Shown here one piece after another: positions 32,574-38,567 of a stretch of DNA of 64,000 bases. The notes under the pieces were generated by a model that was not told where the DNA came from, made no database searches, and saw nothing but the letters and a program-made list of their open reading frames with translations. The stretch covers positions 5,835-69,834 of the forward strand of contig CAWFYM010000013.1 of assembly GCA_963820065.1 (NCBI GenBank), read 5' to 3'. Source of the stretch: an uncultured Actinomycetota bacterium (lineage in GTDB: Bacteria > Actinomycetota > Actinomycetes > DATJPE01). Every line of letters starts with the position of its first letter. Position 1 is the stretch's first letter. Both the position numbers and the translations under genes were made by a program.

Positions 32574-33535
32574 ATGGCTGGTGCGGTCGGGGGAGTCGGG
32601 CGACCGCCCCGGGGGGGCAACGGCGGGGGAGCCCCGCTGGTGGACCTGGCGCTCGCCCGCACGGCGATCGACGCCGTCGGTGAACGACGCAAGGACGCCT
32701 CGTGGGTCGCGGCGGCTTGGGCGGACCCGAGGGCCCGCGTCGTGCTGATCCACGACGGCCGGACCTACGTCTCCGGCGACCGACTGGCCGGCCTACGCCC
32801 CGACGCCGCGGGTGACGTCGAGCCGATCCTGCTCGGCGTCGACGCTGAGGGGGCGCCCTGGTTCGCCGCCCTGAGCGAGCAGCCGCTGCAGGACGTGCCG
32901 GAGCGGGCCGTGGCCGGACTGCGTGAGGTCGGCGCGCGCCTGGACGACCGCGACGCAGGGTTGTTCGTCCAGTCGGTCGCGCTCACCCACTGGCACCGGA
33001 CGCATCCGCACTGCGCCCGCTGCGGGGCCGCGACGGACATGGCGGCGGCCGGCCACACCCGCCGTTGTCCGGTCTGCCAGGCCGAGCACTTTCCGCGTAC
33101 GGACCCGGCGGTCATCGTGCTCGTCACCGACGATGACGATCGCGGGCTGCTCGGCCACAACCCCAGCTGGCCGGACCGGCGCTACTCCACTCTCGCCGGA
33201 TTCGTCGAGCCCGGGGAGTCCCTCGAGCGCGCCGTGCAACGAGAAGTGGAGGAGGAGGTCGGGGTCGCGGTGACCGACGTGTCCTACCTCGGGTCGCAGC
33301 CCTGGCCGTTCCCGGCCTCACTGATGGTGGGCTTCAGGGCCGCTGCCACGACCCGACCACGTTGCGCGTCGACGGCGACGAGATCAGCGACGCGGCCTGG
33401 TTCACTCGCGCCGAGTTGGAGGCGGCGGTCGTGTCGGGTGACGTGGTGCTCCCGCCAGGGCTGTCCATCGCCCGTAGGCTCATCGAGCACTGGTGGGGAG
33501 GCGCTCTGCCTGGTCGGGGAGTCGCCCGTTGGTGA
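32574..33535 (+). pseudogene. nudC: NAD+ diphosphatase NudC (zinc-ribbon + Nudix) carrying an apparent 1-nt frameshift near 33346-33350
   Basis: Up to ...SQPWPFPASLMVGFRAAAT the protein shows the NudC N-domain, zinc ribbon (CARCG...CPVCQ) and Nudix box (GFVEPGESLERAVQREVEEEVGV). The conserved C-terminus (DPTTLRVDGDEISDAAWFTRAELEAAVVSGDVVLPPGLSIARRLIEHWWGG, stop 33535) continues in the +1 frame. The listed 361-aa ORF reads through in the wrong frame. Confidence 0.7.
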
Positions 33536-33552
33536 GCCGTACGTCTCCGGTC

Positions 33553-33798
33553 TCAGGCCGACTGGGCCAACAGCTCCTGCACCTGGAACACGCTCGGGTT
33601 GGTCAGCGTCGCCCCGTCCGGGAAGACCACCGTGGGCACGGTTTGGTTGCCGTGGTTGACCGACTCCACGAACTGCGCGGCCGCGGGGTCGCGCTCGATG
33701 TCGACGATCTCGTAGTCGATCGCCGCGCGATCGAGCTGAGCCTTCAGCCGGTGGCAGGGTCCGCACCAGGGCGTCGTGTAGATCGTCAAGGTGGCCAA
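33553..33798 (-). CDS. mycoredoxin/glutaredoxin-like small redoxin
   Basis: 81 aa, TIYTTPWCGPCHRLK active-site CxxC in a thioredoxin fold. Matches the Mrx1 position between nudC and uvrD2 in mycobacteria. Confidence 0.75.
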   Translation of the reverse strand: MATLTIYTTPWCGPCHRLKAQLDRAAIDYEIVDIERDPAAAQFVESVNHGNQTVPTVVFPDGATLTNPSVFQVQELLAQSA

Positions 33799-33885: not shown

Positions 33886-36135
33886 GTGGTGTCCACCACG
33901 TCGGCGACCGGGCGCGTCGCCGTCGGCGGAGCCGGGCAGGATGGGTCCGTGCCCTCGCCCGACGAGATCCTTGCCGCTCTCGACCCTGAGCAGCGTGCCG
34001 TCGCGACTGCCCCGAGCGGCCCGCTGTGCGTGTTGGCTGGGGCCGGCACGGGCAAGACCCGGGCTCTGACCCACCGCATCGCCTACGGCGTCCAGGCCGG
34101 CCTCCACCCGGCCCAGTCGGTGCTCGCGGTGACGTTCACCACGAGGGCTGCCGGCGAGCTGCGTGGGCGGCTGCGCGCGCTGGGGGTCGGGGGTGTCCAG
34201 GCCCGCACCTTCCACGCGGCTGCCTTGCGCCAGCTTCGATACTTCTGGCCGCGTGTGGTCGGTGGCCCGTCGCCGCGCCTGACCGAGCGCAAGGTGCCGC
34301 TGCTCGCCGAGGCGGCCGGACGCTTGCGGCTGGCGCCGGGGCCAACCGGGTTGCGCGACCTGGCCGCGGAGGTCGAGTGGGCCAAGGTGACGCGCACGTC
34401 GCCCGAGGACTACCCCGCGGCGGCGGCGGCCGCGGGCCGCACCCCGCCTATGGATCTTGACGCAGCGACCATGGGTCGGGTGTTCGGCGGCTACGAGATC
34501 GCCAAGCGCGCCAAGGATGTCATCGACTTCGAGGACGTCCTGCTCCTCACCGTCGCTGCGCTCGAGGAGCGGCCCGACGTCGCCGAGGAGGTCCGCTCGG
34601 CCTACCGCCACTTCGTGGTCGACGAATACCAGGACGTCAACCCGCTCCAGCAGCGGCTGCTCGAGCTGTGGCTCGGTGATCGCACCTCGGTGTGCGTGGT
34701 CGGTGACGCCAGCCAGACCATCTACTCCTTCACGGGTGCGTCCTCGCGCTACCTGCTCGACTTCCCGCGCCGGTGGCCGGGCGCCGAGGTCGTCCGGTTG
34801 GTGCGTGACTACCGCTCCACCCCCCAGGTCGTCGACCTGGCCAACCGCGTGCTCGCGGCCGCGACCGGCCCGACCGCCGCCGCACGTCTCGAGCTGGTCG
34901 CCCAGCGCCCTCCAGGCCCGGCCCCGACCCTGCGCGGTTGGCCCGACGAGCAGGCCGAGGCGGCAGGTGTGGCGGCAGCGATCAAGGACCTCATCGACGC
35001 AGGCACCTCCGCGTCGGAGGTCGCGGTGTTGTTTCGCATCAACGCGCAGTCCGAGGCCTACGAAGACGCCCTGACGGCTCTGGGCATCGCCTACGTGCTT
35101 CGGGGAGGGGAGCGGTTCTTCGAGCGGCCGGAGGTGAAGGAGTCGGTCATGCTCCTGCGTGGCGCCGCACGGGCTTCGGGCGGGGGCGACGTCGTCGCGG
35201 AAACCACCGACGTGCTGGCGGCCACCGGCTGGGACCCGGCGGCGGCTCCGGCGGGAGGTGCCGCGCGCGAACGGTGGGAGAGCGTGGCGGCGCTCGTACG
35301 ACTGGCCGAAGACCTGGCGCGGACACGGCCGGGCGCCACCCTCGCCGATCTCGTGACTGAGCTCGACGAGCGTGCTGCGGCCCAACACGTGCCGACCGTC
35401 GAGGGCGTCACCCTCGCGTCACTGCACGCCGCCAAGGGTCTCGAGTGGGACGCGGTCTTCATCGTGGGAGCCGTCGAAGGAATGCTCCCGCTGGTTCACG
35501 CCCAGACGGCCGAGGCGATCGAGGAGGAGCGGCGACTGCTCTACGTCGGCGTGACACGCGCCCGCGAGCACCTGTCCGTGTCGTGGGGCTGGGCGCGCAA
35601 CCCCGGCGGCTCCCGGTCCCGCGAACCGTCCCGGTTCCTCGAGGGGTTGCACGAAGGGCGCGCGGCTGTCTCCGGTTCCGGACGCGCAACCGGTCGCACC
35701 CGTCGATCGGACCGGTCACGCGGTCGCCTCGACAAGCACTGCCAGACCTGCGGCGGCGTTCTCGCTTCCGCGGCTGAACGCAAACGAGGTCGTTGCGCGG
35801 CCTGCCCGCCGTCCTACGACGAAGGGCTCTACGACGGACTCCGGGCGTGGCGCTTGGCTCGCTCCCGGGCCGACTCAGTGCCCGCCTTCGTGGTGTTCAC
35901 CGACGCCACCCTGGAGGCGATCGCCGTGCGTCGTCCGACCAGCCGGGGCGAGCTTGCGACCATCAGCGGCGTCGGTGCGACCAAGCTGGAGCGCTATGCC
36001 ACGGCGGTCCTCGCGCTGGTCGGCGGGGCCGCGCCCGAGTCGCTGGTCGAGGGCTCCGACGAGGCAGAACAGCTCGACCTTGACGCCCCGAGATCCGAGA
36101 CTTCGGCACCACGGGAACAGGCGCTGTCCGACTGA
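33886..36135 (+). CDS. uvrD2: ATP-dependent DNA helicase UvrD2 (UvrD/Rep motor + tetracysteine module + HRDC domain)
   Basis: Walker A AGAGTGKTRAL, DEYQD, C-terminal CQTCGG...CAAC and HRDC-like region (AFVVFTDATLEAIAVRRPTSRGELATISGVG). Start is uncertain: GTG 33886, or GTG ~33952 giving VPSPDEIL. Confidence 0.85.
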   Translation: MVSTTSATGRVAVGGAGQDGSVPSPDEILAALDPEQRAVATAPSGPLCVLAGAGTGKTRALTHRIAYGVQAGLHPAQSVLAVTFTTRAAGELRGRLRALGVGGVQARTFHAAALRQLRYFWPRVVGGPSPRLTERKVPLLAEAAGRLRLAPGPTGLRDLAAEVEWAKVTRTSPEDYPAAAAAAGRTPPMDLDAATMGRVFGGYEIAKRAKDVIDFEDVLLLTVAALEERPDVAEEVRSAYRHFVVDEYQDVNPLQQRLLELWLGDRTSVCVVGDASQTIYSFTGASSRYLLDFPRRWPGAEVVRLVRDYRSTPQVVDLANRVLAAATGPTAAARLELVAQRPPGPAPTLRGWPDEQAEAAGVAAAIKDLIDAGTSASEVAVLFRINAQSEAYEDALTALGIAYVLRGGERFFERPEVKESVMLLRGAARASGGGDVVAETTDVLAATGWDPAAAPAGGAARERWESVAALVRLAEDLARTRPGATLADLVTELDERAAAQHVPTVEGVTLASLHAAKGLEWDAVFIVGAVEGMLPLVHAQTAEAIEEERRLLYVGVTRAREHLSVSWGWARNPGGSRSREPSRFLEGLHEGRAAVSGSGRATGRTRRSDRSRGRLDKHCQTCGGVLASAAERKRGRCAACPPSYDEGLYDGLRAWRLARSRADSVPAFVVFTDATLEAIAVRRPTSRGELATISGVGATKLERYATAVLALVGGAAPESLVEGSDEAEQLDLDAPRSETSAPREQALSD

Positions 36136-36170
36136 TCGCGAGTGGGCTTCGGACGGATTCAAGAACACGC

Positions 36171-36212
36171 CGAAAAAAGTGTTTGCCACATCCGGTGTTG
36201 GTTCCCTACTCT
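36171..36212 (+). promoter_or_regulatory. candidate whiB7 promoter: AT-rich tract (GAAAAAAGTG) abutting -35 TTGCCA (36183-36188), 18-nt spacer, -10 TACTCT (36207-36212)
   Basis: This is the only AT-rich tract in the high-GC stretch. In mycobacteria the WhiB7 AT-hook binds an AT-rich site just upstream of its own -35. Spacing and hexamers were read directly from the sequence. Confidence 0.45.
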
Positions 36213-36275
36213 TCCAGGACCGGCTTGCCGGGCGACCGAGCCCGGCAGCAGCGACGAGTAGAGGAGGTGACCCCA

Positions 36276-36434
36276 GTGGAGAACATGAGCTTCGTGACGG
36301 AGACCAGCACCCTGGGCGCCTTCTCGCACGCCTTCAACCGGGCGTCCGTGATCGTGCCCACGTTCGGTGTCACGGGTGCAGTGTGCCCGCCCGCCGCCGC
36401 TGGCAAGTCCCGCGCCTGGAGCCCACCGGTCTAA
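36276..36434 (+). CDS. whiB7 leader upstream ORF (uORF; ~49-52 aa: [VEN]MSFVTETSTLGAFSHAFNRASVIVPTFGVTGAVCPPAAAGKSRAWSPPV)
   Basis: GGAGG RBS (36264-36268) 7 nt before GTG 36276, with an in-frame ATG at 36285. The ORF ends ~25 nt before the terminator hairpin. Listed ORF 36183..36434 is an over-extension of this frame from a TTG. Confidence 0.45.
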   Translation: MENMSFVTETSTLGAFSHAFNRASVIVPTFGVTGAVCPPAAAGKSRAWSPPV

Positions 36435-36458
36435 CCATCCCAAGACCGGCAGCCTCCA

Positions 36459-36500
36459 GGCCGCGGACCCCCCACCAGGGATCCGCGGCCTTTCTCTTTG
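36459..36500 (+). terminator. intrinsic terminator/attenuator in the whiB7 leader (GGCCGCGGA...TCCGCGGCC + TTTCTCTTTG)
   Basis: 9-bp GC stem with a 14-nt loop followed by a T-rich tract, located between the uORF stop and the whiB7 RBS (GGAGG 36524-36528). Confidence 0.55.
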
Positions 36501-36537
36501 TCCCCCACCCATGAGGTCAACCCGGAGGTGAAACCCG

Positions 36538-36843
36538 ATGATCGCGCTCGAGACCTACGAGCCCGACCTAGTCGGTTCGCTGCTTCCGTGCCGGTCGTTC
36601 GACCCGGAGCTCTTCTTCGCTGAGTCTCCGCAAGACGTCGAGTACGCGAAGTCTCTCTGTACCGACTGCCCCATTCGCGCCCTCTGCCTCACCGGTGCCC
36701 TTGAGCGCCGCGAGCCTTGGGGTGTCTGGGGCGGTGAGCTGTTCATCCAGGGCGTCGTGGTGCCGCGCAAGCGGCCCCGGGGGCGCCCCAGGAAGTCCGA
36801 GGTTGCTCCGGCAGCCGCGGCGCCAGCGGCTGACGCCGCGTGA
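36538..36843 (+). CDS. whiB7: WhiB-family transcription factor with C-terminal AT-hook (WhiB7 ortholog)
   Basis: Four-Cys Fe-S ligands (C...CTDCPIRALC), GVWGG turn, C-terminal RKRPRGRPRKS AT-hook. Adjacent to uvrD2 as in mycobacteria. Confidence 0.85.
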   Translation: MIALETYEPDLVGSLLPCRSFDPELFFAESPQDVEYAKSLCTDCPIRALCLTGALERREPWGVWGGELFIQGVVVPRKRPRGRPRKSEVAPAAAAPAADAA

Positions 36844-37253
36844 ACCGCGACCACGGTCCCCGATCCCAGATCGAGACCCGCTCGACCCCAACAAGCACAG
36901 GCGGGTTGCTGACGCAGCCCGACCACACACCAAGGAGCCTTGCCATGTACCACCTTCAAGCAGAACATCTGGCGCAGGCGCATCAACAGCGTCTCGCCCA
37001 GGCCGAGCAGGAACGCCTGGTGCGTCGGCTGCGGGTCCACCGGCGCGCACAGCGTCGGCTCCGCAAGGCCGAGCACGCCGCGTTGCGGGCTCGGTTGCAC
37101 CTCGCCTCCGCGTGACGGGCATCGGTCAGCAGCACGACAGGCCCCGCACGTGCGGCAATGCACGACCCGGCCCCCGCTGGGAGTGACGAGAAAGTGTGCG
37201 ACACCAACGGTGTCGCAGGCGGACCGTCACCTCCCAGCGGGGGTTCTTGCCGT

Positions 37254-38567
37254 TCAGCGAGGAGAGAAGCCAGGAAGCCAGCGCTCGAGCTCGGAGCGCA
37301 CCGGGACCTCCGCCTCGAGCTGGCACAGGACTCCGACCCCTCCGGCCCAGACCCGGTGGACGAGGAGGTATTCGGGCGGGAGGTTGAGCTTCAGACCGGT
37401 CGACCAGTTTTCGTTGCGCGGATCGTTGACCCGTTTGAACTGGGTCTGCATCCACGGCCTGTCGAAGCGGAAGGTGTCGTGGGAAGCCGGCTCGACGAAC
37501 GGAGCCAGATAGCCCAGCACCGCCTCCGCGTCGACGGAGGTTCGTGCCTTGATGAAGCCCTCCTCGCGCAGTCCGGCCTCGACCGTGGCGGCATCCCCGT
37601 CGAGGGCCACGGCGAGCAGCCGACCGATGGACGCCGGGAGCCCGTGCGGCAGCCTGGCCACGGCCCCGAAGTCGAGCACTCCGAGCCGGCCGTCGGGGAG
37701 CACCCGGAAGTTGCCCGGGTGGGGATCGGCGTGGAGCATCCCAACCTTCTCGGGGGAGGCAAACAGAAAGTGGACGTAGTGACAGCCCGCGTGGTCGCGC
37801 TCAGCCTGGGTGCCCGACCGGATGATCTGCGACAGCGGTCTGCCGTCCATCCACTCCGACACCAGGACGTGCTCGCCGCCGTCCAGCACCTCGGGCACGG
37901 CGATGTCGCTGTCGCCGGAATACGCCGCGGCGAAGGCCGCCTGCGCCTCTCGCTCGAGGCGGTAGTCGAGCTCCTCGACCATCCGCTCGCGCAGCTCGGC
38001 CACCAGGGGCTTGACGTCGAACCCCGGGATCATCGAGCCGAACAAGCGGGCCATCCGGACGACCTGGTCGAGGTCGGCCCGAAGGGCCTGGTCGGCTCCC
38101 GGATATTGCACCTTGACGGCGACCTCGCGTCCGTCCTTCCACACCGCGCGGTGGACCTGGCCGATGGATGCGGCGGCCGCCGGAACGTCGTCGAAGGAGG
38201 TGAAGCGGCGGCGCCACTGACGGCCGAAGGTCTCAGCCAGGACCCGGTGGACCGTGGCCGCGTCCATGGCAGGACCGGCCTCCTGGAGCTTGGTCAGCGC
38301 CTCGCGATACGGGCCGGCCAGCTCGTCGGGAAAGGCGGCCTCGAAGACGCTCATCGCCTGGCCGAACTTCATGGCCCCGCCCTTGAGATCTCCGAGCACC
38401 CGGAACATCTGTTCGGCGGTGGCACGCTGGATCTCGGCGGTGACCAGCTCGGCGGGGCGACCGCCTACCCGCTTGCCGACGCCGAGCGCGGTCCGACCGG
38501 CGAACCCGAGCGGAAGTCCCGCCAGCTTGGCCGTGCGGGTCACGGCTCTTCGAGGCAGCTCGGTCAC
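37254..38567 (-). CDS. ABC1/UbiB atypical kinase family protein
   Basis: 437 aa, ASIGQVHRA...VAVKVQYPG and HADPHPGNF...DFG motifs. GTG start. Confidence 0.8.

What the first reader, a model, noticed from the sequence alone, without database searches (positions are those of the whole stretch)
36140..36545. whiB7 with complete attenuator-type leader: AT-rich/-35 promoter, RBS-equipped uORF, intrinsic terminator
The WhiB gene at 36538 carries the C-terminal AT-hook (RKRPRGRPRKS) diagnostic of WhiB7 and sits next to uvrD2 as in mycobacteria. Its ~350-nt leader contains a unique AT-rich tract (GAAAAAAGTG) abutting a TTGCCA/-18-/TACTCT promoter, a 49-52 codon uORF with a strong GGAGG RBS (36276/36285..36434), and a GC stem plus T-tract terminator (36459..36500) just before the whiB7 RBS. 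This is the architecture reported for ribosome-stalling-mediated attenuation of whiB7. The uORF peptide here is long, ending AGKSRAWSPPV.
Basis: partly seen in the sequence, partly recalled or inferred. Interest (0 to 1): 0.65.

Follow-up and report, generated by a model that had tools for sequence, protein, structure and literature searches.

The report
whiB7 leader: uORF-controlled transcription attenuator
This is the well-known regulatory leader of the antibiotic-resistance regulator gene whiB7, in which translation of a small upstream reading frame decides whether transcription stops at a terminator. It is complete and typical here, so it is a correct but ordinary finding.

Summary
The gene at 36538..36843 is a WhiB7/WblC orthologue, with a WhiB domain, an EPWGVWGG motif and an RGRP AT-hook. 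It sits in the synteny NudC–glutaredoxin–UvrD2–WhiB7–ABC1.

The leader contains these parts:
- a conserved promoter: A-tract, TTGCCA, an 18-nt spacer, TACTCT
- a 52-codon uORF with a GAGGAGG ribosome-binding site
- the strongest hairpin plus U-tract in the whole 64-kb window (−26.5 kcal/mol)

A covariance model built without the window hits 36396..36500 at 75.9 bits (E about 1e-17).

uORF codons −9 to −4 (36407–36421) pair with 36454–36468, which includes the terminator's 5′ arm, and they stack on a hairpin that spans the uORF stop codon. In silico, a ribosome with its A-site on codons 44–53 frees the terminator. A ribosome stalled earlier, or absent, leaves the antiterminator in place.

This is the mechanism published for mycobacteria and Streptomyces (Dinan 2014; Lee, Lee & Roe 2022).

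- The uORF is the shortest of the 68 compared, not long.
- It is not alanine-rich.

One open lead remains: the conserved W-[S/R]-P-P tail of the uORF.

The parts
33886..36135 (+). uvrD2-like helicase (context gene upstream of the leader)
   Evidence: Pfam UvrD-helicase 5e-49, UvrD_C 1.3e-40, HRDC 1.3e-18. The same neighbour is present in relatives L082 and L083.
36172..36182 (+). A-rich tract GAAAAAAGTGT just upstream of the -35; candidate binding site for the WhiB7 AT-hook (autoregulation)
   Evidence: Contains the only A6 or T6 run in 64 kb. An A-tract 2-6 nt upstream of TTGCNN is conserved in 63 of 67 loci. The binding function is inferred from published WhiB7 biology and was not tested here.
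36183..36188 (+). -35 element TTGCCA
   Evidence: TTGCNN is conserved with an 18-nt spacer.
36207..36212 (+). -10 element TACTCT (TANNNT type); predicted TSS about 36219
   Evidence: The TSS is inferred from spacing only.
36223..36249 (+). 5'-proximal hairpin of the leader (GCU.GCCGGGC......GCCCGGC.AGC)
   Evidence: Predicted. Comparable hairpins lie just upstream of the SD in other lineages by eye. Not tested statistically.
36261..36267 (+). Shine-Dalgarno GAGGAGG of the uORF
   Evidence: A (G)AGGAGG sits 6-9 nt before the uORF start in nearly all relatives.
36276..36434 (+). uORF, 52 codons (GTG start) plus TAA: VENMSFVTETSTLGAFSHAFNRASVIVPTFGVTGAVCPPAAAGKSRAWSPPV*
   Evidence: Orthologous 52/52/51-codon ORFs were called on L081, L082 and L083. 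Frame and length are kept, but the body evolves with nonsynonymous changes far exceeding synonymous ones.
36407..36421 (+). Antiterminator 5' strand (uORF codons S-R-A-W-S: GUCC CG . GCCUGGAG)
   Evidence: Nascent-RNA fold. CCUGGAG is nearly invariant across loci.
36426..36449 (+). Hairpin spanning the uORF stop codon (CCGGUCU...AGACCGG); inner part of the antiterminator stack
   Evidence: z = -5.2 in the window. Present in 57 of 57 distinct leaders with many different sequences, median z -3.3.
36454..36468 (+). Antiterminator 3' strand (CUCCAGGC CG . GGAC); overlaps the terminator 5' arm at 36458-36468
36458..36491 (+). Intrinsic terminator hairpin (10-bp lower stem plus 3-bp upper stem)
   Evidence: -26.5 kcal/mol and strongest in the window. 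98.3% of cells paired with 3 compensatory pairs. It is the RNAalifold consensus. Covariance-model hit at 75.9 bits.
36491..36500 (+). U-tract TTTCTCTTTG
   Evidence: A T-rich tail is conserved in the alignment.
36524..36528 (+). Shine-Dalgarno GGAGG of whiB7
36538..36843 (+). whiB7/wblC orthologue, 101 aa
   Evidence: Pfam Whib plus AT_hook. The CX23CX2CX5C cysteines, EPWGVWGG and RKRPRGRPRK are read directly from the sequence. Closest relative is 97% identical, P0001.

Best explanation
The region 36172..36537 is the autoregulated promoter and attenuator leader of whiB7.

Transcription starts about 36219 from an A-tract/TTGCCA/TACTCT promoter. The RNA carries a 52-codon uORF with a strong ribosome-binding site.

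The last codons of the uORF (36407-36421) can pair with 36454-36468, a stretch that includes the 5' arm of an intrinsic terminator. This helix stacks on a hairpin that spans the uORF stop codon. Together they form the antiterminator.

- Fast translation: the ribosome reaches the last ~10 codons or the stop. It then covers or melts the antiterminator 5' strand and the stop hairpin. The 5' arm is free, the full 10-bp terminator forms next to the U-tract, and RNA polymerase stops 46 nt before whiB7.
- Slowed or blocked translation (ribosome-targeting antibiotics, shortage of charged tRNA): the antiterminator forms first and holds the base of the terminator. Polymerase then reads through into whiB7. 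WhiB7 in turn boosts its own promoter through the A-tract.

Shown here: the sequence elements, their conservation, the terminator covariation, and the thermodynamic feasibility and conservation of the competing structure.

Inferred from homology to the experimentally studied mycobacterial and Streptomyces systems: that termination, read-through and autoactivation actually happen in this organism.
For: - Gene identity and synteny.
- Promoter box conserved in 63 of 67 loci against 0 in shuffles; A6 run unique in the window.
- uORF with SD, a conserved 21-29 nt gap to the hairpin, and a conserved tail. It was called independently on relatives. It was recovered in 110 of 120 metagenome leaders anchored on non-coding sequence, 91 of which have a WhiB7 plus AT-hook gene downstream.
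- Terminator: strongest in the window; 98.3% of cells paired with compensatory changes, and slid controls fall to 24-54%; it is the RNAalifold consensus; the covariance model built without the window scores 75.9 bits at E about 1e-17, the only significant site in the window.
- Switch, nascent RNA: 9 of 10 nt of the 5' arm pair with uORF codons. The antiterminator and terminator states are isoenergetic (-61.1 vs -61.0 kcal/mol). A ribosome placed at the stop restores the terminator in the window, and terminator formation rises from a mean of 8.7 to 9.7 of 10.4 arm pairs across 69 leaders.
- Switch, ribosome sweep: the flip occurs sharply between A-site codons 42 and 44.
- Stop-spanning hairpin in 57 of 57 distinct leaders.
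- Literature: the same architecture and mechanism are described for M. marinum/M. bovis (PMC4128351) and for Streptomyces/Mycobacterium (Lee, Lee & Roe 2022, as summarised).
Against: - There are no expression data for this organism. TSS, termination and read-through are all predicted.
- The antiterminator test on fixed alignment columns was weak: 67% of cells paired, and the -1 slide did nearly as well. The cause is that lineages use shifted registers and partly different 5' partners.
- The shuffle control for pairing of the 5' arm is also weak, 7.2 vs 9.3 nt, because any GC-rich sequence pairs readily.
- At equilibrium the antiterminator holds only the 4 basal terminator pairs. The argument that this suffices rests on the general requirement that the stem abut the U-tract.
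- The generic terminator scan did not flag the site.
- The uORF is not alanine-rich, unlike the uORFs described by Poulton et al.
Confidence: 0.85

Rival explanations
1. The uORF tail (…A-W-[S/R]-P-P-x-stop) is more than RNA. It acts as a peptide-level ribosome-parking signal: a di-proline and/or slow-termination context that holds the ribosome over the antiterminator 5' strand long enough for the terminator to form. This would add to the standard model rather than replace it.
For: - The window and Kribbella differ at 4 sites in the last 8 codons. All 4 are synonymous, and two of them weaken the RNA helix.
- In the AW.PP class, the syn:nonsyn ratio is 223:328 in the last 8 codons against 103:1240 in the 12 codons before them.
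- 86 of 100 distinct tails fetched with a non-coding anchor have P-P followed by 1-3 residues and a stop, and both Pro codons use all four synonymous forms.
- The ribosome sweep places this position exactly in the zone where an occupying ribosome favours the terminator.
- A di-prolyl mutation further upstream in the M. tuberculosis uORF gives constitutive whiB7 (Poulton). This shows that pause position matters.
Against: - The same nucleotides are part of the antiterminator helices, so RNA constraint alone may explain most of the conservation.
- The S/R codon next to them (AGA/AGT/AGC) also varies at position 3 while changing the amino acid. Third-position freedom is therefore not proof of peptide selection.
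- Streptomycetaceae tails differ (…PWRDPA, …PWRERT) and some lack Pro-Pro.
- Pair counts are inflated by relatedness.
Confidence: 0.2
2. The hairpin plus U-tract is a constitutive terminator, ending a short uORF transcript or stray read-through from uvrD2. whiB7 would then be controlled only at its promoter, with no structural switch.
For: - The terminator itself is very stable, and at equilibrium only its 4 basal pairs are contested.
- The antiterminator covariation test on fixed columns was inconclusive.
Against: - No promoter-like box lies between the hairpin and whiB7, which are 46 nt apart. A constitutive terminator would therefore silence the gene.
- The competing helix, the stop-spanning hairpin and the fixed 21-29 nt geometry are conserved across several actinobacterial lineages (including Streptomycetaceae, Kribbella, Nocardioides and a Mycobacteriales MAG).
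- Experiments in related systems show regulated read-through.
Confidence: 0.05
3. The uORF encodes a small protein with its own function, and its position upstream of whiB7 is operonic rather than regulatory.
For: - Frame and length are conserved.
- There is a strong SD.
- A central block (RASVIVPTFG) is conserved in the four closest leaders.
Against: - Over the body of the uORF, nonsynonymous changes far outnumber synonymous ones (window vs L082: 21 vs 3), and substitutions are not biased toward codon position 3. whiB7 shows the opposite pattern, 3 nonsynonymous vs 9 synonymous.
- Across genera the body cannot be aligned and its length ranges from 52 to 163 codons.
- No Pfam or NCBIfam family matches it.
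Confidence: 0.04
4. The leader is a dedicated alanine sensor, as proposed for mycobacteria. In that model, alanine codons in the uORF are the regulatory codons.
For: - The window has three consecutive Ala codons (40-42). They sit at the last position where a stalled ribosome still allows the antiterminator.
- The concept is published for mycobacteria.
Against: - Ala is 15.4% of the uORF against 15.6% in neighbouring proteins (p = 0.57).
- None of the 68 uORFs collected reaches 25% Ala.
- The Ala run is absent from the closest relatives L081-L083.
Confidence: 0.08

Closest known systems
whiB7/wblC uORF-mediated transcription attenuator of Mycobacterium and Streptomyces (Dinan et al. 2014, PMC4128351; Lee, Lee & Roe 2022, Mol Microbiol 117:179; Poulton et al. 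2023/24)
   Same: - A WhiB7 gene with an AT-hook, downstream of uvrD2.
- A distal promoter with an A/T tract at the -35.
- An SD-equipped uORF ending just before a stem-loop with a U-rich tail.
- An antiterminator made from the 3' end of the uORF.
- The same logic: completed uORF translation leads to termination, and stalled translation leads to read-through.
- The Streptomyces leaders in my own set align with the window from the uORF tail through the terminator.
   Different: - It is compact. The 52-codon uORF is the shortest of 68, against 83 codons in M. smegmatis and about 100-160 in Streptomycetaceae.
- Only 46 nt separate the terminator from the whiB7 ATG, against up to about 240 nt in Streptomyces.
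- The 5' partner of the terminator arm lies directly next to CCUGGAG. In Streptomycetaceae it is separated by a 7-nt loop, and Kribbella and Nocardioides use a CGGGUUC:GAACCCG pairing instead.
- The uORF is not alanine-rich.
- I could not read Lee et al. 2022, so I could not compare helix by helix with their drawings.
Leader-peptide attenuators of antibiotic-resistance genes (the erm/cat type, or Listeria rli53–lmo0919 and B. subtilis vmlR)
   Same: A short translated leader senses ribosome stalling, and an RNA rearrangement switches on a resistance function.
   Different: - erm and cat mostly act on translation initiation of the downstream gene, and they depend on drug-specific arrest peptides.
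- Here the output is intrinsic termination, the regulated gene is a transcription factor, and the sensor appears generic because the uORF body is not conserved.
Classical amino-acid biosynthesis attenuators (trp, his, leu; ilvB in Corynebacterium)
   Same: A translated leader plus mutually exclusive terminator and antiterminator hairpins, read out through ribosome position.
   Different: - There is no conserved run of regulatory codons.
- It is a two-state design in which absence of translation gives read-through, not super-attenuation.
- The stop codon lies inside the antiterminator stack.
TnaC-type stop-codon stalling leader (E. coli tnaCAB)
   Same: Only a loose resemblance to the open lead: a conserved Trp a few codons before a Pro-containing C-terminus next to the stop codon.
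   Different: - TnaC blocks Rho access and needs free tryptophan.
- Nothing here was tested, and the Trp codon is also part of an RNA helix. This is recalled from general knowledge and is a lead, not a result.

Membership tests
WhiB7/WblC subfamily of WhiB-like proteins | WhiB domain with four Fe-S cluster cysteines | tested here: met
   Pfam PF02467 at 1.4e-15. Cys pattern PC…(23)…LCTDCPIRALC read from the translation.
WhiB7/WblC subfamily of WhiB-like proteins | C-terminal AT-hook (RGRP core) | tested here: met
   RKRPRGRPRKS. Pfam AT_hook scores 17.5 bits against a cut-off of 17.4. The same tail is present in 79 of the 80 relatives; L013 appears frameshifted.
WhiB7/WblC subfamily of WhiB-like proteins | EPW/GVWGG turn motif between the cluster domain and the AT-hook (signature recalled from the WhiB7 literature) | tested here: met
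   REPWGVWGGELF is present and conserved in the relatives. That it is diagnostic rests on prior knowledge.
WhiB7/WblC subfamily of WhiB-like proteins | Conserved neighbourhood (uvrD2 upstream; NudC and glutaredoxin further upstream; ABC1-type protein downstream) | tested here: met
WhiB7/WblC subfamily of WhiB-like proteins | Binds the primary sigma factor and activates resistance genes | not testable with these tools
   Needs biochemistry or genetics.
whiB7/wblC uORF–terminator attenuator | Promoter with an A/T-rich site immediately upstream of the -35 (autoregulation site) | tested here: met
   Unique A6 run. The box is conserved in 63 of 67 loci against 0 in shuffles. Binding was not tested.
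whiB7/wblC uORF–terminator attenuator | SD-equipped uORF in the leader that ends shortly before the terminator | tested here: met
   The gap is 23 nt in the window and 21-29 nt in relatives.
whiB7/wblC uORF–terminator attenuator | Rho-independent terminator between the uORF and whiB7 | tested here: met
whiB7/wblC uORF–terminator attenuator | Antiterminator formed by the uORF 3' region, mutually exclusive with the terminator | tested here: met
   Per-sequence folding and the ribosome sweep, plus the stop-spanning hairpin in 57 of 57 leaders. The fixed-column covariation count was inconclusive.
whiB7/wblC uORF–terminator attenuator | Read-through induced by translation inhibitors or amino-acid starvation | not testable with these tools
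   Needs a reporter assay or Term-seq.
whiB7/wblC uORF–terminator attenuator | Alanine-rich uORF (25-40% Ala, as stated by Poulton et al. for the species they compared) | tested here: not met
   15.4% against a 15.6% background, p = 0.57. All 68 uORFs are below 25%. This is a reported property, not a mechanistic requirement.
Any Rfam family | Match to a curated covariance model | tested here: not met
   No match up to E = 1 overlaps the leader elements on the + strand in 35500-37500. The whiB7 leader seems to have no Rfam 15 family.
trp-type amino-acid attenuator | Conserved run of regulatory codons for the sensed amino acid | tested here: not met
   The only run (Ala 40-42) is absent from the closest relatives, and there is no compositional enrichment.

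The most novel reading that the evidence does not exclude
The near-universal uORF tail of this clade, …A-W-[S/R]-P-P-x(1-3)-stop, may be selected as a peptide as well as an RNA. It would be a built-in di-proline or slow-termination pause. The pause would park the ribosome exactly over the antiterminator 5' strand and so set the basal OFF level of whiB7. If so, EF-P activity or termination efficiency would become hidden inputs to intrinsic antibiotic resistance. A related point is that in these lineages the uORF is a generic translation-speed sensor and not an alanine sensor.
Probability: 0.2. Interest if true: 0.5.

Novelty: new member of a known kind. Interest (0 to 1): 0.22.

Why it matters
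WhiB7 is the master switch of intrinsic resistance to ribosome-targeting antibiotics in actinobacteria. Its leader is the sensor that converts slowed translation into resistance.

This instance adds nothing new in kind. It does show that the whole device has been kept almost to the letter in an uncultured or unnamed high-GC actinobacterium and in more than 100 soil-metagenome relatives. The device comprises the promoter box, the SD-uORF, the stop-codon hairpin, the CCUGGAG:CUCCAGG clamp and a palindromic CCGCGG terminator.

Practical by-products:
- The element is conserved enough for a covariance model (75-89 bits on held-out sequences), yet it has no Rfam family.
- The 'alanine-rich uORF' generalisation does not hold outside the species for which it was reported.

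Tried and rejected
- The generic sigma-70 promoter and terminator scan found nothing in 35500-37500. Its rules (loop of 8 nt or less, E. coli-like hexamers) do not fit, so I replaced it with my own scan.
- The Rfam scan gave no relevant hit.
- An exact-sequence look-up of the window's WhiB7 in the contig collection found nothing on record. The organism is therefore not identified. The nearest protein is 97% identical and sits on a 1.3-kb JGI soil contig.
- Lee, Lee & Roe 2022 is not held in the library. The published antiterminator drawings could not be compared directly.
- Counting antiterminator pairs on fixed alignment columns was inconclusive because of register shifts between lineages. 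I replaced it with per-sequence folding.
- The mononucleotide-shuffle control for pairing of the 5' arm discriminates poorly in GC-rich RNA, 7.2 vs 9.3 nt.
- The codon-position test of peptide versus RNA constraint on the uORF tail is suggestive but not decisive.
- In one search I translated the small ORF downstream of whiB7 one base out of frame. This was corrected, and there is still no family hit.
- The suspected nudC frameshift could not be confirmed with Pfam on the short fragments.
- Structure prediction and fold search were not used. They would add nothing to an RNA-level question.
Full report
**Observation**

- An A-tract, GAAAAAAGTGT, at 36172-36182.
- TTGCCA at 36183-36188, an 18-nt spacer, and TACTCT at 36207-36212.
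- GAGGAGG at 36261-36267, followed 8 nt later by GTG at 36276. There is an in-frame ATG at 36285.
- An open frame running to TAA at 36432-36434, which makes 52 codons from the GTG.
- The hairpin AGGCCGCGGAC-CCC…GGG-AUCCGCGGCCU at 36458-36491, followed by the T-tract TTTCTCTTTG, which begins with the hairpin's last nucleotide (36491-36500).
- GGAGG at 36524-36528 and the ATG of a 101-aa protein at 36538.

Pfam calls the 101-aa protein a WhiB domain plus an AT-hook. It calls the upstream gene a UvrD-type helicase with an HRDC domain. Further out lie a NudC-like Nudix protein, a glutaredoxin and a convergent ABC1 kinase-like gene. The same UvrD/HRDC–small ORF–WhiB–ABC1 order is annotated on contigs of relatives.

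**Is it more than chance?**

- The AAAAAA run is the only A6 or T6 in the 64-kb, 67.6%-GC window.
- The simple consensus scan found no promoter or terminator, but its rules exclude a 13-nt upper stem-loop and actinobacterial hexamers.
- My own scan of both strands ranks this hairpin plus U-tract first, at −26.5 kcal/mol. The runner-up scores −20.7 and is a branched fold.

**Comparative evidence**

A genome-collection scan with the WhiB7 protein returned 80 loci from Streptomyces, Kitasatospora, Streptacidiphilus, Kribbella, Nocardioides, Cellulosimicrobium and MAGs. All but one (L013, apparently frameshifted) carry the RKRPRGRPRK tail.

*Terminator.*
- 69 of the 80 loci have the same hairpin, almost letter for letter ((A)GG(G)CCGCGGAACCC–loop–GGGAUCCGCGGCC(C)(U)), followed by a U-tract.
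- On a 51-sequence alignment, 98.3% of terminator cells are paired and three pairs show compensatory changes. Sliding the 3' partner drops pairing to 24-54%.
- RNAalifold returns the terminator as the consensus structure.

*uORF.*
- 68 of these loci, and the window, have a uORF with a (G)AGGAGG SD that ends 21-29 nt before the hairpin. The window's gap is 23 nt.
- uORF length ranges from 52 to 163 codons, with a median of 105. The window's is the shortest.

*Promoter.* The box A≥3…TTGCNN-18-TANNNT lies upstream of the uORF in 63 of 67 loci and essentially never in shuffles.

*Formal membership test.*
- A covariance model built from 50 orthologues without the window matches window 36396..36500 over its full length at 75.9 bits (E≈1e-17).
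- Nothing else in the window is significant. The only other hit is the reverse-strand echo of the palindromic stem.
- The model also finds the element in 8 loci that my crude scan had missed or skipped.

*Closest relatives.*
- A 97%-identical WhiB7 on a soil-metagenome contig, and others at 88% and 75% identity, carry 52-, 52- and 51-codon uORFs.
- The gene callers of those projects had called these ORFs independently.

**The antiterminator**

In the window, the nascent RNA, before the terminator's 3' arm exists, folds as follows:
- GUCC (36407-10) pairs with GGAC (36465-68).
- CG (36411-12) pairs with CG (36462-63).
- GCCUGGAG (36414-21) pairs with CUCCAGGC (36454-61).
- These stack on the hairpin CCGGUCU (36426-32):AGACCGG (36443-49), which contains the first base of the stop codon.

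Together these helices tie up 9 of the 10 nt of the terminator's 5' arm.

With the whole element present, the antiterminator state and the terminator state are isoenergetic, at −61.1 and −61.0 kcal/mol.

I then ran a sweep with a 30-nt ribosome footprint.
- With the A-site on codons 1-42, or with no ribosome, the four basal terminator pairs next to the U-tract stay captured by the antiterminator.
- With the A-site on codons 44-53, the full 10-bp terminator forms.

The same behaviour holds across 69 leaders. On average 9.3 of 10.4 arm nucleotides pair upstream in the nascent state. A ribosome at the stop raises terminator formation from 8.7 to 9.7 pairs.

The blocks CCUGGAG and CUCCAGG are nearly invariant. 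The stop-spanning hairpin between them differs in sequence from lineage to lineage, for example UGAUC:GAUCA, UGAGC:GCUCA and UCUGAC:GUCAGA. It is nevertheless present in all 57 distinct leaders, with a median z of −3.3.

There are weak points. Counting pairs on fixed columns was inconclusive because registers shift between lineages. The simple shuffle control is not very discriminating in GC-rich RNA.

The near-invariance of the terminator sequence is explained by double duty. Its 5' arm must pair with two partners, and the core CCGCGG is self-complementary.

**How it most likely works**

This matches the published model. A distal promoter is activated by WhiB7 itself through an A/T site at the −35. 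uORF translation that runs to completion allows the Rho-independent terminator to form. Ribosome stalling favours an antiterminator and read-through. Sources are:
- Dinan et al. 2014, PMC4128351
- summaries of Lee, Lee & Roe 2022
- Poulton et al. 2023

In this window the elements, their conservation and the energetics are shown. Actual termination, induction and autoactivation are inferred from homology.

**What the uORF is not**

Its body does not evolve like a protein.
- Between the window and L082 there are 21 nonsynonymous and 3 synonymous codon differences, with no third-position bias.
- whiB7 itself shows 3 nonsynonymous and 9 synonymous differences.

It matches no Pfam or NCBIfam family.

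It is also not alanine-rich.
- Ala makes up 15.4% of the uORF against 15.6% in neighbouring proteins (p = 0.57).
- None of the 68 uORFs reaches the 25-40% reported by Poulton et al. for the species they compared.

**An open lead**

The last eight codons behave differently from the body.
- The window and Kribbella share SRAWSPPV* and differ at four sites, all synonymous.
- In this tail class the syn:nonsyn ratio is 0.68, against 0.08 just upstream.

To avoid conditioning on the coding part, I fetched 120 more leaders from metagenomes with a pattern taken only from the non-coding strand plus the terminator arm.
- 110 of them have the uORF.
- 91 have a WhiB7 plus AT-hook gene downstream.
- 86 of 100 distinct tails read …W-[S/R]-P-P-x(1-3)-stop, with all four Pro codons in use.

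However, the adjacent S/R codon also varies at position 3 while changing the amino acid, and all these nucleotides sit in or beside RNA helices. Peptide-level selection, for instance a di-proline or termination pause that parks the ribosome where it blocks the antiterminator, is therefore possible but not demonstrated. I put it at about 0.2.

**Comparison and novelty**

- This is a member of the known whiB7/wblC uORF–terminator attenuator. All structural defining features that could be tested were met. The induction phenotype cannot be tested here.
- It is a compact version, with the shortest uORF of the set and 46 nt from terminator to ATG.
- The 5' partner of the terminator arm is arranged in a lineage-specific way.
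- There is no Rfam family for it.
- The organism is not identified. The exact protein is not on record. The leader and WhiB7 resemble those of Kribbella, Nocardioides and several soil MAGs.

**Verdict**

The finding is ordinary for a specialist, so interest is low. The remaining value lies in the clean comparative picture and two small departures: the uORF is not Ala-rich, and its W-x-P-P tail is conserved.

Noticed in passing
window 36945..37115 (+): A 56-aa, very basic small ORF (MYHLQAEHLAQAHQQRLAQAEQERLVRRLRVHRRAQRRLRKAEHAALRARLHLASA) with an AAGGAG SD lies about 100 nt downstream of whiB7. It is conserved on L081, L082 and L083, where gene callers also called it. L082 vs L083 show 20 synonymous and 10 nonsynonymous codon changes, so it looks like a real gene. 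It has no Pfam or NCBIfam family. Function unknown.
   Followed up: partly
window 36276..36434 and the uORFs of L001-L080: whiB7 uORFs outside mycobacteria are not alanine-rich. The window's is 15.4% Ala against a 15.6% background, and across 68 uORFs the median is 17% and the maximum 24%. This is at odds with the statement that they are 'universally' 25-40% Ala.
   Followed up: yes
window 36409..36434; L086-L205: The uORF tail …A-W-[S/R]-P-P-x(1-3)-stop is conserved in 86 of 100 distinct metagenomic leaders that were retrieved with a non-coding anchor. Trp lies 5-6 codons before the stop in 69 of 72 genome-derived tails. Whether the constraint is on the peptide, the RNA or both is unresolved.
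   Followed up: partly
window 36261..36269 with 36317..36325: In the minimum-energy fold, the uORF's own SD (GAGGAGGUG) pairs with CGCCUUCUC inside the uORF (codons 14-17). The GCCTTC core is kept in all four close leaders. It may modulate uORF initiation.
   Followed up: no
window 36223..36249: A stable 10-bp hairpin lies right after the predicted TSS. Leaders of Streptomyces and Kitasatospora also show a hairpin just upstream of 'CCGAGACGCCGAGAGGAGG'. It may be a 5' stabiliser. Conservation was judged by eye only.
   Followed up: no
window 36340..36370: The nucleotide block CGGGCGTCCGTGATCGTGCCCACGTTCGG (peptide RASVIVPTFG) in the middle of the uORF is almost invariant among the window, L081, L082 and L083, while the flanking uORF sequence diverges freely. 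There is no counterpart in other genera.
   Followed up: no
window 36393..36401: Three consecutive Ala codons (40-42), preceded by Pro-Pro (38-39), sit at the last A-site positions where a stalled ribosome still permits the antiterminator. The run is absent from the closest relatives, so it is probably incidental.
   Followed up: partly
window 32574..33659 (+) and 33362..33535 (+): The NudC-like ORF matches the NUDIX profile only up to position 92 of 134. Its C-terminal ~70 residues look like out-of-frame sequence that overlaps the glutaredoxin gene on the other strand. A 57-aa ORF in another frame reads like a NudC C-terminus (…AAWFTRAELEAAV…LPPGLSIARRLIEHW). This suggests a frameshift or sequencing error. 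Pfam on the fragments gave no hit.
   Followed up: partly
L082 (GCA_035633275.1, DASQFF010000100.1): This MAG is labelled 'Candidatus Limnocylindria bacterium' (Chloroflexota). Yet it carries the actinobacterial UvrD2–uORF–WhiB7–ABC1 block with a WhiB7 88% identical to the window's. The contig is probably mis-binned or mis-labelled.
   Followed up: no
L003, L023, L054, L068: These four WhiB7 loci with an AT-hook show neither the hairpin plus U-tract in my scan nor a covariance-model hit at E≤1. They may use a divergent leader or none.
   Followed up: no
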